Positions 15,204 through 20,000 of a stretch of 64,000 nucleotides of DNA are shown in pieces; position 1 is the stretch's first letter; every line of letters starts with the position of its first letter. Both the position numbers and the translations under genes were made by a program. The notes beneath the pieces were generated by a model that saw nothing but the letters and a program-made list of their open reading frames with translations, searched no databases and was not told the origin of the DNA. This DNA is from an uncultured Gammaproteobacteria bacterium. GTDB taxonomy: Bacteria; Patescibacteriota; Patescibacteriia; Magasanikbacterales; GWA2-37-8. Location: assembly GCA_964407865.1 (NCBI GenBank), contig CAYOXC010000001.1, positions 267,978 through 331,977 of the forward strand, given 5' to 3'.

Positions 15204-17141
15204 TTATTTAACCACTTCACCCTCTATTGGCCCATTATCTTTATTTTCATTGCTGTCAGAATCTGACGACTGGTCGCCTTTTGGTTCCTGCTCGTTATCA
15301 GGCGTCGCTGGTGGAGGGGTTGTGCCTTGCTTCTCAGCAGAATACATCTTCATGCCGACTGCCTGTGCAGCTTTAGATAACTCTTCACTCATTTTTTTTA
15401 TCGCCTCTACATCATCCTTATCTTTTACCTCTTTCAAATTGGCCAGTGAATCATTAACTGCCTTTTTTTCGTCGTCAGTTATATCAACTTTCTTTTCTTC
15501 AACTTCCTTCATCATTTTCTCGGTCGTATAAATCATGGTGTCAGCAATATTTCTCGCCTCAATTAAATCCTGCTTGCCTTTATCCTCGGCAGCATGCACT
15601 TCAGCTTCTTGTCTCATTCGTTCAATTTCTTCTTTTGATAAACCGGATGAAGCCTCGATACGAATTGATTGTTCTTTGTTAGTTGCTTTATCCTTTGCCT
15701 TAACATTTAAAATACCATTAGCGTCAATATCGAAAGTAACTTCAACTTGAGGCACGCCTCTTGGAGCTGGTGGAATACCGTCCAACATAAAGCGGCCTAA
15801 AGTTTTATTGTCAACTGCCATTGAACGCTCTCCTTGTAAAACATGCACCTCCACACTAGGTTGACTATCAGCTGCCGTAGAAAATACCTGAGTTTTTGAA
15901 GTTGGAATAGTAGTATTTCGATCAATTAATTTTGTCATCACACCTCCTAAAGTTTCTAAACCAAGTGAAAGTGGAGTAACATCCAAAAGTAAAATATCTT
16001 TCACTTCGCCCTTTAAAACACCCCCTTGTACTCCTGCACCAACCGCCACTACTTCATCTGGATTCACGCTGATATTTGGTTTTTTACCGAAAAATTTCTC
16101 AACCGTTTTTATAACTAGCGGCATTCTGGTCATACCGCCAACCATAACAACTTCTTCAATATCAGAGGCCTTTAATTTTGCATCATCAAGCGCTCGCTGA
16201 ACCGGTTCTAAAGTTTTTTCTATCAAACCACCAATCAATTCTTCTAATTTTGCTCGCGTTAATTTCATCACTAGATGCTTCGGCCCATTTGAATCAGAAG
16301 TAATAAATGGCTGATTAATTTCCGATTCTTGAGTTGTGGATAATTCAATTTTGGCTTTCTCGGCTGCTTCCTTAATACGCTGAAGAGCTAAAGTATCTTT
16401 CGCCAAGTCAATCCCTTGATCACGCTTAAACTCATCAATTATCCAATTAATAATCACCTGATCGAAATCATCACCACCTAAATGCGTATCGCCATTGGTG
16501 GAAAGCACCTGAACATTATCAGGAGCTACATCTAATATTGAAATATCAAAAGTTCCACCGCCCAAATCATAAACAGCTATCTGCTCATTGGTTTTTTTGT
16601 CAAAACCATAAGCCAAAGCAGCCGCGGTTGGCTCATTAATAATACGAAGAACATTCAATCCAGCTATCTCACCGGCATCCTTGGTTGCTTTGCGCTGTGA
16701 ATCATCAAAATATGCCGGTACGGTAATCACTGCATCGGTTATCTTTTCTCCCAGACGTTCTTCAGCATCAGATTTCATTTTTCCCAAAATCATTGCGGAA
16801 ATTTCCTGAGGGCTATATTCCTTACCCTGCATTAAAACTTTTATTCCATCACCAGCCTGAACAATTTTATACGGCATCAATTTCAAATCACGCTGAACCT
16901 CTGCGTCATCCCAACGGCGACCAATCAAACGCTTAATCGAAAATAGTGTGTTCTCAGGATTTGTTACAGCTTGACGTTTGGCTAACTGCCCAACTAATCG
17001 CTCACCTGATTTAGCAATAGCTACAATTGACGGAGTTGTCCGTGTCCCCTCTTTGTTTTCCAGCACCTTTGGCTGACCACCTTCAATGATAGCCATGCAT
17101 GAATTTGTGGTGCCGAGATCAATCCCTAGTACTTTTGACAT
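15204..17141 (-). CDS. dnaK: Chaperone DnaK (Hsp70)
   Basis: 645 aa; [16 protein letters not shown], Hsp70 substrate-binding domain and lid. Confidence 0.95.
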
Positions 17142-17199: not shown

Positions 17200-17231
17200 A
17201 TAAGTGGAAAAATTTGTCCGCCTTGAGCGGA

Positions 17232-17657
17232 TTATTTTTTAACTACTTTAACATCAACTTTTTTAGTCTTTGATGACATTGCCTTTGGACAAGTAATTTT
17301 TAAAATACCATCCTTAAATTCAGCAACCGTCTTATCGTCCACTACCGGAGCAGGCAGAGCAAGTTCGCGGTAGAACGAACCACTTCTAACTTCCTTGCGA
17401 TAATAATTCTTTTCCTCTACCTCGTGTTCCTTTTTACTTTCGCCTTTTATGGTGAGCACACCCTTATCAACACTAACCTTTACATCTTCCGGCTTCATGC
17501 CGGCTAAAGGCGCTTCTACCACCACCTCTGTGTCTGTTTCATAAACATCGACTGGTGGTACAAAAGCCTTAAGTGACGGATGGACCATAGGCAAGCGCAT
17601 CGCCTCGTCCATCTCGCTAAACGGGTCCCACATTGGAGACCAACGTATTAAACTCAT
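17232..17657 (-). CDS. Small heat-shock protein (Hsp20/alpha-crystallin family)
   Basis: 141 aa; alpha-crystallin domain signature (DVYETDTEVVVEAPLAGMKPEDVKVSV...LTIKG). Confidence 0.85.
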   Translation of the reverse strand: MSLIRWSPMWDPFSEMDEAMRLPMVHPSLKAFVPPVDVYETDTEVVVEAPLAGMKPEDVKVSVDKGVLTIKGESKKEHEVEEKNYYRKEVRSGSFYRELALPAPVVDDKTVAEFKDGILKITCPKAMSSKTKKVDVKVVKK

Positions 17658-17734
17658 ATTTTAGCCTCCTTCTGTTTAACGCCGTTCGACGAAAAACAGA
17701 AATATATATTTAATAAATATTTAATATTTAATAT

Positions 17735-18616
17735 TTACTCTTTAACTATTACCTTGGCCGGCCTGATCACCCGGTCGCCCATCATATATCCAGCGGTTAT
17801 TTCTTGCAAAATCTCGCCTTCTTCAGCGTCAACTGCCTCTTCTTTACCAACCGCTTCGTGAAACTTAGGATCGAACAGCTCACCAACAGTTTTTATTTCC
17901 TCCACTCCGTGCGATTTTAAAATATCACCAAATTGCTTAATCACATGTTTTACCCCCTCTGTCCAAGGATTAACTTCGACCTCCTTTGTACCGTTCAAAG
18001 CCAATTTAAGATTTTCATACACTGGTATAAATTCTTCCAAAACTTGCTGTTCGCTCATTTTAATCCATTCGGCACGACGGCTATCAATTTCTTTTTGTAA
18101 ATTCCGATAATCGGCTAAAGCCCTCTGCCAATTCAACTTATATTCTTCAATTTGCTCAGCCGCATCTTTGTTTTCAAAATGCTTAATAAAAAACTTTACA
18201 GTAGTTTCGGTAAACGGATCGATCTTGTATTTTTTGTCAGTTAAAACTTCTTTTGGATCAACCCAAACCCATTCGCTCATTTCACGACTTTCTTTCAGCT
18301 CACCACCGCACATATGGGCCGCATAATCCAAAAAAATAAAATGCGCCTTCCGATGAAAAAATTTAGGATTATTTGCCTCCTGAAATCCAATGTATTCAAC
18401 TTTATCAACATCTAAACCAGTTTCTTCTAAAATTTCACGCTTATTTGCATCTTCGCATGATTCGCCTAGTTCTACATGGCCTCCGGGTATATGCCAACGC
18501 TCGCCCCATTTTGGTGATCTAATTAATAAAACTTTTCCTTCATCATTGTATATAAGCGAACCCACGGTTGGTTCGGGATAGGTTTGGTTCCAGTCTTTGT
18601 TAAATTCAGCTGACAT
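17735..18616 (-). CDS. grpE: Nudix hydrolase fused to nucleotide-exchange factor GrpE
   Basis: 293 aa. Residues about 40-65 carry a perfect Nudix box GX5EX7REUXEEXGU (GGHVELGESCEDANKREILEETGL). The C-terminal about 150 aa is GrpE (FDPKFHEAVG...GYMMGDRVIRPAKVIV). It sits in the GrpE position of the hrcA-grpE-dnaK operon. Confidence 0.8.
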   Translation of the reverse strand: MSAEFNKDWNQTYPEPTVGSLIYNDEGKVLLIRSPKWGERWHIPGGHVELGESCEDANKREILEETGLDVDKVEYIGFQEANNPKFFHRKAHFIFLDYAAHMCGGELKESREMSEWVWVDPKEVLTDKKYKIDPFTETTVKFFIKHFENKDAAEQIEEYKLNWQRALADYRNLQKEIDSRRAEWIKMSEQQVLEEFIPVYENLKLALNGTKEVEVNPWTEGVKHVIKQFGDILKSHGVEEIKTVGELFDPKFHEAVGKEEAVDAEEGEILQEITAGYMMGDRVIRPAKVIVKE

Positions 18617-18617
18617 A

Positions 18618-19325
18618 TTATTTAATTAAGTCATTAGCCTTTGATACTACGGCAAAATTTTTCTTATAATCCATCCTAATAGGTCCGAAAACAATAAACA
18701 TACCTTCCCTGTTCTTCCCAGTTCGTGATGCCACTACGCTTAAATATGATCCAAAGGGGTGTTCCTGGCCAATAAAAACACGTGTTTCATTGCCCACATG
18801 ATTATAGAATCTGCTCAAGCAATCTTCACATTGATCAAACATTCTAGAAGTATTTATTACCATTGATGAACTGGTAAATTCCGGCTTATCAAACAAGCTG
18901 GAAAGTCCGGTATAAAAAATTCGATCTTGGGTAAAAGCGATGATAACTGCCTCGCGAGTTATTCGCGCAGACTCTTTAGCTAGAGACTTGCAAGCCAAAT
19001 CATGCTCATGCTCTTTCTTGTATGATTTTTCCAGATCAGCCAAATCTTTTTTATTCAATTTCAGATCTCTATGATTCAAATTTTTGATATAAAAATGATA
19101 ACCCGATTCAGTTGGAATTCGTCCGGCTGAAGTATGCGGGTGTGTTAAATAACCTGCTTGTTCAAGAGCTCTCAAGTCATTCCGGATAGTAGCTTCGCTC
19201 CAGCCAACTTTTTCCTTATAAGCTAGAAATTTGGAGCTAACCGGTTCGGCAGTACTAATAAAATTTTCTACTACAATGTTGAGGAGCTCTTTCTGGCGAG
19301 GTTCAATTTCATGCTCTGCTGGCAT
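18618..19325 (-). CDS. hrcA: Heat-inducible transcription repressor HrcA (short form)
   Basis: 235 aa; N-terminal wHTH (LSERQKELL-like ...ATIRNDLRALEQAGYLTHPHTSAGRIPT); shorter than the canonical ~340 aa protein. Confidence 0.8.
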   Translation of the reverse strand: MPAEHEIEPRQKELLNIVVENFISTAEPVSSKFLAYKEKVGWSEATIRNDLRALEQAGYLTHPHTSAGRIPTESGYHFYIKNLNHRDLKLNKKDLADLEKSYKKEHEHDLACKSLAKESARITREAVIIAFTQDRIFYTGLSSLFDKPEFTSSSMVINTSRMFDQCEDCLSRFYNHVGNETRVFIGQEHPFGSYLSVVASRTGKNREGMFIVFGPIRMDYKKNFAVVSKANDLIK

Positions 19326-19334
19326 AAAAAATAT

Positions 19335-19361
19335 TTATCACTCTAATCTATTGAGTGATAA
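19335..19361 (-). promoter_or_regulatory. CIRCE-like HrcA operator (TTATCACTC-N9-GAGTGATAA) in the hrcA promoter
   Basis: Perfect 9-bp inverted repeat with 9-bp spacer, one position off the CIRCE consensus TTAGCACTC-N9-GAGTGCTAA. It lies just downstream of a minus-strand TTGACA(-35) / TATATT(-10) pair and about 10 nt before the hrcA ATG. Confidence 0.6.
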
Positions 19362-19433
19362 TATACCACGCTTGCTCAATGTGTCAAGTATTAAAAAACC
19401 CCCAGATAAGGGGGTAAATTCATTGTGTTCACA

Positions 19434-20000
19434 TTATATCGACTGAATCTCGCTTAAAAGCACATTTTCAACGTAAATACCACGCGAGTAAAAAATACTC
19501 TCTAATTCTTCTTTTAACATTTCCTCAACTTCATCTCTTCGCGCACCAACAATATCTTGATAATTAAAACGTGAAAAAACCATGCGAATCCTACTTCTTA
19601 CCGTCGGCCGAACAATTTTTTCCACAAAATCTTCGCCAATTGTCTGCCAAATAAGCGGCACCTGATGCAAATCCAACCGCAAAAGCACCGTACCCTCAAC
19701 TCCAACTCGTTTACCATCCATGGTAATTCCAGCAATCGGTATGTCACCAAGAGCTCTGGGTAATTCAGGGTTAAACTGCCGTGAAATACTATATTCCAAC
19801 GTTTGGGTATTAAATAATTTTGCTTTTTGCCAAAAAGGAATTTTTAAATGCAAACCAGGAGTAAGAACTTTTTTTAATACACCCCTGCCTAAATCATAAA
19901 CACAAGCAACATATCCAGGCGGAACATGTATAAAAAAACCTTTCAGTACGTCTTCAACGACGAAAGAATACATTAGCTTATCTAGAGAGTCTCCTGCCAT
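19434..20000 (-). CDS. SPFH/Band-7 (prohibitin-like) domain protein
   Basis: 188 aa; band-7 core pattern (IPIAGITMDG...GTVLLRLD...IVRPTVRSRIRMVFSRFNYQDI). Confidence 0.7.
   Translation of the reverse strand: MAGDSLDKLMYSFVVEDVLKGFFIHVPPGYVACVYDLGRGVLKKVLTPGLHLKIPFWQKAKLFNTQTLEYSISRQFNPELPRALGDIPIAGITMDGKRVGVEGTVLLRLDLHQVPLIWQTIGEDFVEKIVRPTVRSRIRMVFSRFNYQDIVGARRDEVEEMLKEELESIFYSRGIYVENVLLSEIQSI

What the first reader, a model, noticed from the sequence alone, without database searches (positions are those of the whole stretch)
17735..18616. Nudix hydrolase fused to GrpE in the heat-shock operon
The protein occupying the grpE slot between hrcA and dnaK has a complete GrpE C-terminal module but about 140 N-terminal residues with a perfect Nudix box (GGHVELGESCEDANKREILEETGL). 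Nudix enzymes hydrolyse nucleoside diphosphate derivatives including Ap4A, a stress alarmone reported to accumulate on heat shock and to associate with DnaK. Fusing such an enzyme to DnaK's nucleotide-exchange factor is a striking domain combination that I do not recognise as a described architecture.
Basis: partly seen in the sequence, partly recalled or inferred. Interest (0 to 1): 0.65.

Follow-up and report, generated by a model that had tools for sequence, protein, structure and literature searches.

The report
Nudix enzyme fused to GrpE cochaperone
In this small-genome (Patescibacteria) bacterium the heat-shock co-chaperone GrpE really does carry an intact Nudix nucleotide-hydrolase domain in place of its usual floppy N-terminal tail. 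The fusion recurs in well over a hundred related lineages, has apparently not been described in the literature, and its substrate and its link to the DnaK chaperone are still unknown.

Summary
ORF 17735..18616 (minus strand, 293 aa) is uninterrupted. It has a NUDIX domain (Pfam E 2e-23) and a GrpE domain (E 1e-40), and it sits in a CIRCE/HrcA-controlled unit: hrcA, nudix-grpE, hsp20, dnaK.

It is not an assembly chimera. About 195 protein clusters and 40 of the 80 related species-level genome loci examined carry the same fusion, all in Patescibacteria. The catalytic Nudix core is intact in 189 of 195 clusters, and the Nudix half is about as conserved as the GrpE half.

The AlphaFold model (pLDDT 91) runs the last Nudix helix straight into GrpE's long stalk helix. 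The enzyme therefore replaces exactly the disordered tail (E. coli residues 1-33) that normally probes DnaK's substrate site. That puts it about 60 Å or more from the first GrpE residues that contact DnaK's nucleotide-binding domain.

The Nudix module behaves as a clean in-frame cassette, gained or lost at least 12 times among 68 species, and DnaK shows no co-adaptation. The substrate cannot be assigned, so the Ap4A idea remains untested.

Best reading: a canonical GrpE carrying an active, heat-shock-co-regulated accessory Nudix hydrolase. It is a new variant of a known kind, absent from the literature I could search.

The parts
19360..19387 (-). Sigma-70-type promoter TTGACA-16 nt-TATATT (TG-extended -10) upstream of hrcA
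   Evidence: 11 of 12 hexamer matches. It lies just after the terminator-like hairpin of the upstream SPFH/Band-7 gene (19398..19415). This is a consensus match only.
19335..19361 (.). CIRCE-like HrcA operator TTATCACTC-N9-GAGTGATAA, overlapping the -10 region
   Evidence: 2 mismatches to the CIRCE consensus, the only such site in 64 kb, 0.01 expected by chance.
18618..19325 (-). hrcA (235 aa, a short form)
   Evidence: Pfam HrcA C-terminal domain E 2e-12 plus an N-terminal HTH. The gene holds the same position in all 80 related loci.
17735..18616 (-). The nudix-grpE fusion gene (293 aa)
18218..18574 (-). Nudix fold, residues 15-133
   Evidence: Pfam PF00293. The AlphaFold2 model has pLDDT 88-98 over this stretch. 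Foldseek matches many solved Nudix enzymes with E about 1e-10.
18413..18481 (-). Nudix box, residues 46-68 (GHVELGESCEDANKREILEETGL)
   Evidence: G46, E52, R60, E61, E64 and E65 are invariant in 92 homologues. The core pattern is intact in 118 of 120 and 71 of 75 clusters and in 39 of 40 fused loci.
17993..18217 (-). One continuous helix, residues 134-208: the Nudix C-terminal helix running into the GrpE long stalk helix and the first bundle helix
   Evidence: DSSP H134-208, block pLDDT 93-96 across the junction. In one search, R165 aligns with E. coli GrpE R64, so residue 134 corresponds to E. coli residue 33.
17741..18172 (-). GrpE domain, residues 149-292 (stalk, four-helix-bundle helices, beta domain)
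   Evidence: Pfam PF01025 E 1e-40. PDB matches are 4ANI, 3A6M and 1DKG. G221, R282 and V291 align with E. coli G122, R183 and V192.
17669..17702 (-). Stable RNA hairpin in the grpE-hsp20 spacer. Its 3' arm runs into the hsp20 Shine-Dalgarno sequence (AAGGAGG).
   Evidence: centroid hairpin, MFE z-score -3.1, none of 200 shuffles fold as well. Its function was not tested.
17232..17657 (-). hsp20 (alpha-crystallin small heat-shock protein, 141 aa)
   Evidence: PF00011, E 6e-20. It is present between grpE and dnaK in most related loci.
17217..17231 (-). Terminator-like hairpin after hsp20
   Evidence: This is a consensus match only.
15204..17141 (-). dnaK (645 aa)
   Evidence: PF00012, E 2e-256.

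Best explanation
The gene encodes a two-function co-chaperone. The C-terminal 160 residues are a canonical GrpE: full-length stalk helix, four-helix-bundle helices and beta domain. This part most likely dimerises and drives ADP release from DnaK in the usual way. The usual disordered N-terminal tail is replaced by a small, catalytically competent Nudix pyrophosphohydrolase. The last helix of that domain is continuous with the GrpE stalk. The GrpE dimer would therefore hold two Nudix domains rigidly at the stalk tip, beside DnaK's substrate-binding domain and far from its nucleotide cleft.

Because the domain is part of the CIRCE/HrcA transcription unit, the hydrolase is made in step with GrpE when proteins are stressed. 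I infer that it is an accessory, stress-induced nucleotide-clearing enzyme. The candidate substrates are an adenine-containing NDP-X compound such as a dinucleoside polyphosphate or ADP-ribose, or a damaged (d)NTP. In these regulator-poor, streamlined genomes it has been plugged into GrpE for co-regulation, stoichiometry and possibly localisation. It is not needed for nucleotide exchange itself.

Shown here: the fusion, its conservation, the intact catalytic residues, the canonical GrpE residues, the operon and operator, the helix continuity in the model, and the cassette-like gain and loss. Inferred: enzymatic activity, dimerisation, heat induction, and the substrate class.
For: - Domain calls and the uninterrupted ORF.
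- All of the top 120 homologue clusters, and 75 further clusters, carry both domains.
- Forty of 80 species-level genome loci are fused, always in the context SPFH gene, hrcA, grpE, optional hsp20, dnaK.
- The Nudix catalytic residues plus H92 and E112 are invariant. The core box is intact in 189 of 195 clusters.
- The Nudix half is about as conserved as the GrpE half, with mean pairwise identity of 45% against 51%.
- AlphaFold2 gives pLDDT 91 with a single helix spanning residues 134-208.
- The alignment to 1DKG, 4ANI and 3A6M places the domain boundary at E. coli residue 33. It also retains the equivalents of G122, R183 and V192.
- A CIRCE operator and a promoter lie upstream of hrcA.
- The accessory nature shows in at least 12 fused/plain switches on a DnaK tree. 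It also shows in clean in-frame indels of 405 nt against 63 nt and 417 nt against 57 nt, between otherwise 76-81% identical loci.
- The same N-terminal slot can also hold DUF1653, alone or together with Nudix.
- Published work shows that the E. coli GrpE N-terminal tails act at the DnaK substrate-binding domain (PMC12915176).
Against: - No activity or substrate is shown, and no Nudix subfamily signature is met.
- Frequent loss could mean the domain confers little.
- No DnaK residue co-varies with the presence of the fusion once phylogeny is allowed for. Physical interplay with DnaK is therefore unsupported.
- A few fused proteins (P0288, P0289, P0342, the L058 protein, the second Nudix copy of P0018) have a dead Nudix box yet keep the domain. 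This hints at either a non-catalytic role or decay in progress.
- Only a monomer could be modelled, so the arrangement of two Nudix domains on the dimer is unknown.
- I could not check whole genomes for a second grpE or for other Ap4A or ADP-ribose hydrolases.
Confidence: 0.6

Rival explanations
1. The Nudix domain is specifically a dinucleoside-polyphosphate (Ap4A) hydrolase. GrpE delivers it to DnaK so that the heat-shock alarmone, which binds DnaK, is cleared from or near the chaperone.
For: - Ap4A accumulates on heat and oxidative stress and was cross-linked to DnaK, GroEL and ClpB. Nudix enzymes are a main route of Ap4A degradation (review PMC10148737).
- The domain is a minimal Nudix of about 135 aa, like the monomeric Ap4A/Ap6A hydrolases that appear among its fold neighbours (3I7U, 1VC8).
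- An aromatic residue (F, Y or W) is conserved in 91 of 92 sequences 19 residues after the box, close to the position of the subfamily tyrosine (PMC6856373).
- The gene is heat-shock regulated.
Against: - No Ap4A-hydrolase model or signature is actually met. The neighbours are equally ADP-ribose, NAD, NTP and RNA-cap enzymes.
- Pro at +16, the ADP-ribose pyrophosphatase hallmark, is present in the query and in 62 of 92 homologues.
- The domain sits about 40 helical residues (roughly 60 Å) before the first NBD-contacting part of GrpE.
- The domain is repeatedly lost in sister species.
Confidence: 0.2
2. The Nudix domain acts mainly as a non-catalytic module. It could be a folded cap or ligand sensor that stabilises or tunes the GrpE stalk (the thermosensor). 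Or it could replace the pseudo-substrate tail in modulating substrate release from DnaK.
For: - It replaces exactly the tail that acts on the DnaK substrate-binding domain.
- It is rigidly joined to the stalk by a continuous helix.
- Several lineages keep the domain after losing the catalytic RE..EE residues. The dead domain is still about 70% identical between L058 and P0018.
- Non-enzymatic Nudix domains are known in the clan (PMC5389931).
Against: - The catalytic residues, plus E112 and H92, are invariant in about 97% of clusters across 40-50% sequence divergence. That is hard to explain without catalysis.
- Plain sister GrpEs work without the domain.
Confidence: 0.12
3. Artefact: two adjacent genes (nudix and grpE) joined by an assembly or sequencing error, or a chimeric contig.
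For: In one relative (L058) a stand-alone Nudix gene lies directly before grpE. One 451-aa protein (P0018) comes from a single 2.3-kb contig and may itself be a read-through of such a pair.
Against: - The same single ORF appears in about 195 clusters from NCBI, JGI, ENA and Logan assemblies and in 40 species-level genomes.
- The alignment runs continuously through the junction, and the predicted helix across it is confident.
- Composition is uniform.
Confidence: 0.01

Closest known systems
Canonical bacterial GrpE (E. coli GrpE, PDB 1DKG; Geobacillus kaustophilus, 4ANI; Thermus thermophilus, 3A6M)
   Same: Residues 134-293 align over the whole stalk, bundle and beta domain (E 6e-17 to 5e-10). 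The RALADYxNL motif and the equivalents of G122, R183 and V192 are kept. The gene sits in the hrcA-grpE-dnaK position under a CIRCE operator.
   Different: The disordered N-terminal tail of about 33 residues is absent. In E. coli that tail carries the IIM motif that binds DnaK's substrate site (PMC12915176). Here a folded 133-residue enzyme domain takes its place.
Small single-domain Nudix hydrolases (e.g. Rickettsia felis MutT/ADP-ribose pyrophosphatase 4KYX, NudI 6DT3/3OGA, Aquifex Ap4A hydrolase 3I7U, Thermus Ndx1 1VC8), plus uncharacterised stand-alone metagenomic Nudix proteins of about 140 aa
   Same: The fold and a complete Nudix box are shared. The nearest non-fused relatives are 40-48% identical stand-alone proteins that end with the same C-terminal helix.
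   Different: None is a close homologue: the best PDB E-value is 6e-10. No curated subfamily cutoff is reached. The stand-alone relatives I looked up sit among acetyltransferase and glyoxalase genes, not chaperone genes. Here the C-terminal helix carries on into a co-chaperone.
Anabaena All4144, a GrpE carrying an extra helix-turn-helix domain (bioRxiv 10.1101/2025.04.14.648684)
   Same: It is a precedent for a bacterial GrpE that has acquired an additional functional domain (abstract seen).
   Different: The added domain there is a DNA-binding HTH, not an enzyme. It belongs to a different phylum. I did not read the paper beyond its abstract.
Other bifunctional Nudix fusions (NadM-Nudix NMN adenylyltransferase/ADP-ribose pyrophosphatase; mycobacterial MutT1 Nudix plus phosphatase; NrtR Nudix plus wHTH)
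   Same: A Nudix module is joined to a partner whose pathway uses a related nucleotide. Weak NCBIfam and Foldseek matches to these families were seen.
   Different: In those cases the partner is a nucleotide-metabolising enzyme or a transcription factor. A protein-folding co-chaperone as the partner has no described counterpart in the literature I searched.

Membership tests
GrpE nucleotide-exchange factor family (PF01025) | Sequence match to the family profile above the curated threshold, covering stalk, bundle and beta domain | tested here: met
   139 bits against a cutoff of 25.8, profile positions 20-164 of 165; matches to 4ANI, 3A6M, 1DKG and GrpEL1.
GrpE nucleotide-exchange factor family (PF01025) | Conserved residues needed for DnaK binding (E. 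coli G122, R183 and the hydrophobic beta-domain contacts; the residue roles are from my own knowledge of Harrison et al. 1997 and later mutagenesis) | tested here: met
   G221 aligns with G122 and is invariant in 92 homologues. R282 aligns with R183, and the family consensus at that position is K. V291 aligns with V192.
GrpE nucleotide-exchange factor family (PF01025) | Homodimer that accelerates ADP release from DnaK | not testable with these tools
   Only a monomer could be modelled. No biochemistry is available.
GrpE nucleotide-exchange factor family (PF01025) | NCBIfam GrpE equivalog cutoffs | tested here: not met
   the best model, NF010738, scores 98.8 bits against a cutoff of 137. These are lineage-specific full-length models, so a divergent Patescibacteria GrpE with a foreign N-terminus is expected to fall short.
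Nudix hydrolase superfamily (PF00293) | Nudix fold plus the box GX5EX7REUXEEXGU | tested here: met
   (83 bits against a cutoff of 21.1). The box at residues 46-68 can be read directly from the sequence.
   invariant in 92 aligned sequences, and the core is intact in 189 of 195 clusters.
Nudix hydrolase superfamily (PF00293) | Metal-dependent pyrophosphohydrolase activity | not testable with these tools
   This needs an enzyme assay.
Diadenosine-polyphosphate (Ap4A) hydrolase subfamily of Nudix | Subfamily signature: an invariant tyrosine downstream of the box (PMC6856373 citing Dunn et al. 1999; the +16 to +18 position is from my memory), or a match to a curated Ap4A/RppH model | tested here: inconclusive
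   An aromatic residue at +19 (F87; F, Y or W in 91 of 92) is near the recalled position but not at it. RppH models score 20-35 bits against cutoffs of 116-259.
ADP-ribose pyrophosphatase subfamily of Nudix | Proline 16 residues downstream of the Nudix box (PMC6856373) | tested here: inconclusive
   P84 is exactly at +16 in the query but is conserved in only 62 of 92 homologues. The best PDB sequence hit, 4KYX, is labelled an ADP-ribose pyrophosphatase but is a structural-genomics entry. NudE scores 22.6 bits against a cutoff of 169.
NADH/NAD diphosphatase (NudC) subfamily | SQPWPFPxS motif after the box and a match to the curated model | tested here: not met
   The sequence after the box is DVDKVEYIGFQEANNPKFFHRK, with no such motif. 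NF001299 scores 50 bits against a cutoff of 158.
HrcA/CIRCE heat-shock regulon | CIRCE inverted repeat in the promoter region, with hrcA in the same unit | tested here: met
   Actual heat induction was not tested.

The most novel reading that the evidence does not exclude
The Nudix domain is a dinucleoside-polyphosphate or ADP-X hydrolase that GrpE positions against DnaK, so that a stress nucleotide which binds or modifies the chaperone or its clients is destroyed as part of each exchange cycle. In that case the fusion would be the first genomic 'Rosetta stone' linking alarmone turnover directly to the Hsp70 cycle. The temperature-dependent unwinding of the GrpE stalk could also switch the enzyme.
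Probability: 0.15. Interest if true: 0.8.

Novelty: new variant of a known kind. Interest (0 to 1): 0.55.

Why it matters
GrpE's N-terminal tail is currently under active study as the element that pushes substrates off DnaK. Here nature has replaced that tail with an enzyme, in a whole clade of ultra-small bacteria. Sister species with and without the module are available as natural controls.

Whether stress nucleotides such as Ap4A really act on Hsp70 chaperones is an open question that goes back to the 1991 cross-linking of Ap4A to DnaK. This fusion gives a concrete, expressible protein with which to test that link.

If the domain turns out to be merely a co-regulated housekeeping enzyme, it still has value. 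It would show how regulator-poor, streamlined genomes place accessory enzymes under heat-shock control by fusing them to a regulon member.

Tried and rejected
1. Substrate assignment by homology. PDB sequence search, Foldseek against the PDB and NCBIfam gave only generic or mixed Nudix matches below every curated cutoff.
2. Genomic context of the closest stand-alone Nudix relatives. They lie among acetyltransferase, glyoxalase and GrpB genes, with no chaperone link and no informative names.
3. DnaK co-adaptation. The columns that separate fused from plain species simply follow the Falkowbacteria-type versus Magasanikbacteria-type split. Within the mixed clade nothing discriminates.
4. A tree of the Nudix domains, to test for a single origin. 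Neighbour-joining on about 135 divergent residues mixed stand-alone and fused sequences. I regard it as unresolved and draw no conclusion on one versus several origins.
5. The idea that an active stand-alone Nudix always partners the dead GrpE-attached copy. It is true in L058 and in P0018, but P0288 follows hrcA directly with no such gene. I rejected it as a general rule.
6. My own first reading that the window protein's KFFIKHFENK is a decayed form of the KKSFFGKxCKNCEK motif. The alignment of close pairs shows it is the Nudix C-terminal helix, and the window protein simply lacks that motif.
7. An AlphaFold-database fold search to list fused proteins by organism. That library was unavailable.
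8. Rfam scan of the window. It found only one tRNA and no known thermometer or leader.
9. Direct channelling of ADP from DnaK to the Nudix site. I rejected it on geometry, because the domain is at the opposite end of the stalk from the NBD-contacting beta domain.

Full report
**1. The observation**

The window has one uninterrupted ORF on the minus strand at 17735..18616 (293 aa). Pfam places a NUDIX domain on residues 15-130 (E 2e-23) and a GrpE domain on residues 149-292, covering profile positions 20-164 of 165 (E 1e-40).

The neighbours on the same strand are:
- hrcA (18618..19325), whose stop lies 1 nt before the fusion's ATG;
- an hsp20 gene (17232..17657);
- dnaK (15204..17141);
- an HtrA-like protease.

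A CIRCE-like inverted repeat, TTATCACTC-N9-GAGTGATAA, lies at 19335..19361. It is the only such site in the window, with 0.01 expected by chance. It overlaps the -10 hexamer of a near-consensus promoter.

The gene therefore sits in the grpE slot of an HrcA-type heat-shock unit. An hsp20 gene separates it from dnaK, and a terminator-like hairpin (17217..17231) follows that hsp20 gene.

**2. It is a real, conserved protein and not a chimera**

A search of about 5.8 billion proteins returned 781 hits. All of the best 120 clusters (41-100% identity) carry both Pfam domains. Where named, they are called only "nucleotide exchange factor GrpE" or "nucleoside triphosphatase". A second search added 75 further fused clusters.

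I scanned one genome per species for related loci and kept the best 80. My own domain HMMs find the fusion as a single ORF in 40 of them and a plain GrpE of 128-225 aa in the other 40. Every locus has the same context: SPFH/Band-7 gene, hrcA, grpE, optional hsp20, dnaK.

The named organisms are Candidatus Magasanikbacteria, Falkowbacteria, Kuenenbacteria, Parcubacteria and "Patescibacteria group". Several third-party assemblies are labelled "uncultured Gammaproteobacteria" but share this operon, so I take the label to be a placeholder.

GC content is the same in both halves of the ORF (0.393 and 0.396) and matches the window (0.391).

**3. Both halves look functional**

In an alignment of 92 fused homologues, these positions are invariant:
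- Nudix half: G46, E52, R60, E61, E64 and E65, plus H92 and E112;
- GrpE half: A166, A168, D169, Y170, N172, G221, F229, F248, G276 and V289.

The catalytic core G-x5-E-x7-RE-x2-EE is intact in 118 of 120 and 71 of 75 clusters and in 39 of 40 fused loci. Mean pairwise identity is 45% for the Nudix half and 51% for the GrpE half. The two halves are therefore under similar constraint.

The GrpE half aligns with solved GrpEs (4ANI, 3A6M, 1DKG). G221, R282 and V291 correspond to E. coli G122, R183 and V192. The functional importance of those three E. coli residues is from my own knowledge of the literature.

**4. Anatomy**

The AlphaFold2 model built on that alignment is confident (mean pLDDT 91). 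It shows a Nudix sandwich (residues 15-133), then one unbroken helix from 134 to 208, a second helix at 217-235, and the beta domain at 238-292.

R165 aligns with E. coli R64, so residue 134 corresponds to E. coli residue 33. The Nudix domain therefore replaces exactly the disordered N-terminal tail, and the whole stalk is retained. The closest stand-alone Nudix relatives end with the same helix (query residues up to about 141-145). The enzyme's own last helix has thus become the start of the GrpE stalk.

Recent work shows that the E. coli tails bind the DnaK substrate site through an IIM motif (PMC12915176). The fused protein has only about 14 residues before the Nudix fold and no such motif.

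By inference, the enzyme sits at the stalk tip next to DnaK's substrate-binding domain. That is about 40 helical residues, roughly 60 Å, from the first part of GrpE that touches the nucleotide-binding domain. Direct hand-over of ADP from DnaK to the Nudix site is therefore unlikely.

**5. What the enzyme acts on cannot be read from the sequence**

The best solved homologue is a structural-genomics "ADP-ribose pyrophosphatase MutT" from Rickettsia felis, at E 6e-10. Foldseek neighbours are a mixture of NUDT12/NudC, NudI, MutT1, NUDT15, RppH and Ap4A/Ap6A hydrolases, all with similar scores. All NCBIfam Nudix models score 19-50 bits against cutoffs of 95-475.

The subfamily hallmarks described in PMC6856373 give mixed signals:
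- The ADP-ribose proline at +16 is present (P84) but is kept in only 62 of 92 homologues.
- An aromatic residue at +19 is kept in 91 of 92.
- The NADH motif is absent.

A full-library search with the Nudix domain alone found 13,753 relatives. The nearest non-fused ones are uncharacterised proteins of about 140 aa at 40-48% identity. The three I looked up lie among acetyltransferase and glyoxalase genes.

**6. The module is an accessory cassette**

On a neighbour-joining tree of DnaK (629 columns, 68 species), one clade (Falkowbacteria-type) is fused throughout except for one member. In the other clade (Magasanikbacteria-type, which includes the window) fused and plain forms are interleaved. 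Parsimony needs at least 12 changes of state.

Two close pairs show how the change occurs:
- L009 (fused) and L064 (plain) are 81% identical at the DNA level through hrcA and the first few codons of grpE. They then differ by 405 nt (the Nudix domain) against 63 nt (an acidic tail), and are 76% identical again to the end.
- L012 and L041 show the same pattern, with 417 nt against 57 nt.

Fused and plain forms share their first five to seven residues. Whether these are repeated deletions, insertions or allele exchange by recombination is not resolved. The Nudix-domain tree was uninformative.

The same slot also takes other modules: DUF1653-Nudix-GrpE (about 345 aa), DUF1653-GrpE without Nudix (L079), and a duplicated form (P0018, and L058 with a separate upstream Nudix gene). 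In the duplicated forms the GrpE-proximal copy has lost the catalytic residues.

A few single-Nudix fusions also have a dead box: P0288, P0289 and P0342.

No DnaK column tracks the presence of the fusion beyond phylogeny.

**7. Interpretation**

The best-supported reading is a canonical GrpE that carries an active, heat-shock-co-regulated Nudix hydrolase as an optional N-terminal module. Fusion to GrpE gives the enzyme HrcA control, fixed stoichiometry with the co-chaperone, a dimeric scaffold, and a position beside DnaK. I put this at about 0.6.

Nothing here tests it, and the geometry and the frequent loss of the module count against it. I give it about 0.2.

A mainly non-catalytic role is suggested by the rigid helix junction and by the retained dead copies. 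It is contradicted by the near-universal conservation of the catalytic residues. I give it about 0.12.

An artefact is excluded.

**8. Novelty**

Full-text searches for the two domain names together, with several spellings, found no paper describing the fusion. A 2017 survey of the Nudix clan and a 2025 review of GrpE-like factors do not mention it.

The proteins themselves have been in public databases since the first Patescibacteria genomes, annotated simply as GrpE. An Anabaena GrpE with an added HTH domain is a precedent for extra domains on GrpE.

I classify this as a new variant of a known kind, of moderate interest. It is a striking and testable architecture, but an accessory one with unknown chemistry.

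Noticed in passing
L064:5911-6498, L054, L053, L041, L048, L047, L040, L052, L034 (plain GrpE); also L009:5986-6912, L012, L002, L019, L024 (fused): Many Magasanikbacteria-type GrpEs, with or without the Nudix domain, carry a conserved basic-aromatic-cysteine motif (KKSFFGKxCKNCEK, sometimes CxxCxxC) about 15 residues before the EYKxGWQRALADY start of the stalk. In a dimer this would bring four or more cysteines together at the stalk tip, suggesting a zinc or redox site. The KKSFF part resembles a DnaK-binding peptide. The window protein and L001 lack the motif.
   Followed up: partly
P0063, P0065-P0067 and others (about 345 aa); L008, L013, L014, L018, L020; L079:4292-4969: A DUF1653 domain (PF07866) can sit in front of the Nudix domain (DUF1653-Nudix-GrpE) or directly on GrpE without Nudix (L079). 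The only solved relative is an uncharacterised protein, 3BE3. The GrpE N-terminus seems to be a general docking site for small domains in these lineages.
   Followed up: partly
L058:1071-1508 and L058:1532-2371; P0018; P0288 (L086:396-1328); P0289; P0342 (L087:5001-5879): A small subclade has a duplicated Nudix. The distal or stand-alone copy keeps the box, while the copy attached to GrpE has KRKxKDE in place of REUxEE. P0288, P0289 and P0342 have a dead or degenerate domain with no adjacent active copy.
   Followed up: partly
L073:6992-7426: In one plain-GrpE genome a distantly related stand-alone Nudix gene (144 aa, intact box) lies between hsp20 and dnaK in the same operon. This is an independent association of a Nudix enzyme with this heat-shock unit.
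   Followed up: no
window 17669-17702 (minus strand): A stable hairpin in the 77-nt AT-rich spacer before hsp20. Its 3' arm overlaps the first bases of the Shine-Dalgarno sequence (MFE z-score -3.1). There is no Rfam match. It could be an RNA thermometer or a processing or stability element. Conservation in relatives was not checked.
   Followed up: no
window 18618-19325: HrcA is unusually short: 235 aa here and 224-284 aa in the related loci. Typical HrcA proteins are about 340 aa, from my own knowledge. The Pfam match covers only positions 81-213 of the C-terminal-domain profile.
   Followed up: no
window 19434-20000 and the related loci: An SPFH/Band-7 gene lies immediately upstream of hrcA in most Magasanikbacteria-type loci and is separated from it by a terminator-like hairpin (19398..19415). 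This conserved neighbourhood is of unknown significance.
   Followed up: no
L006, L012, L014, L015, L020, L024 and others: Many third-party-annotated genome records titled "uncultured Gammaproteobacteria bacterium" carry this Patescibacteria-type operon and fusion. The organism label is probably a placeholder or an error.
   Followed up: no
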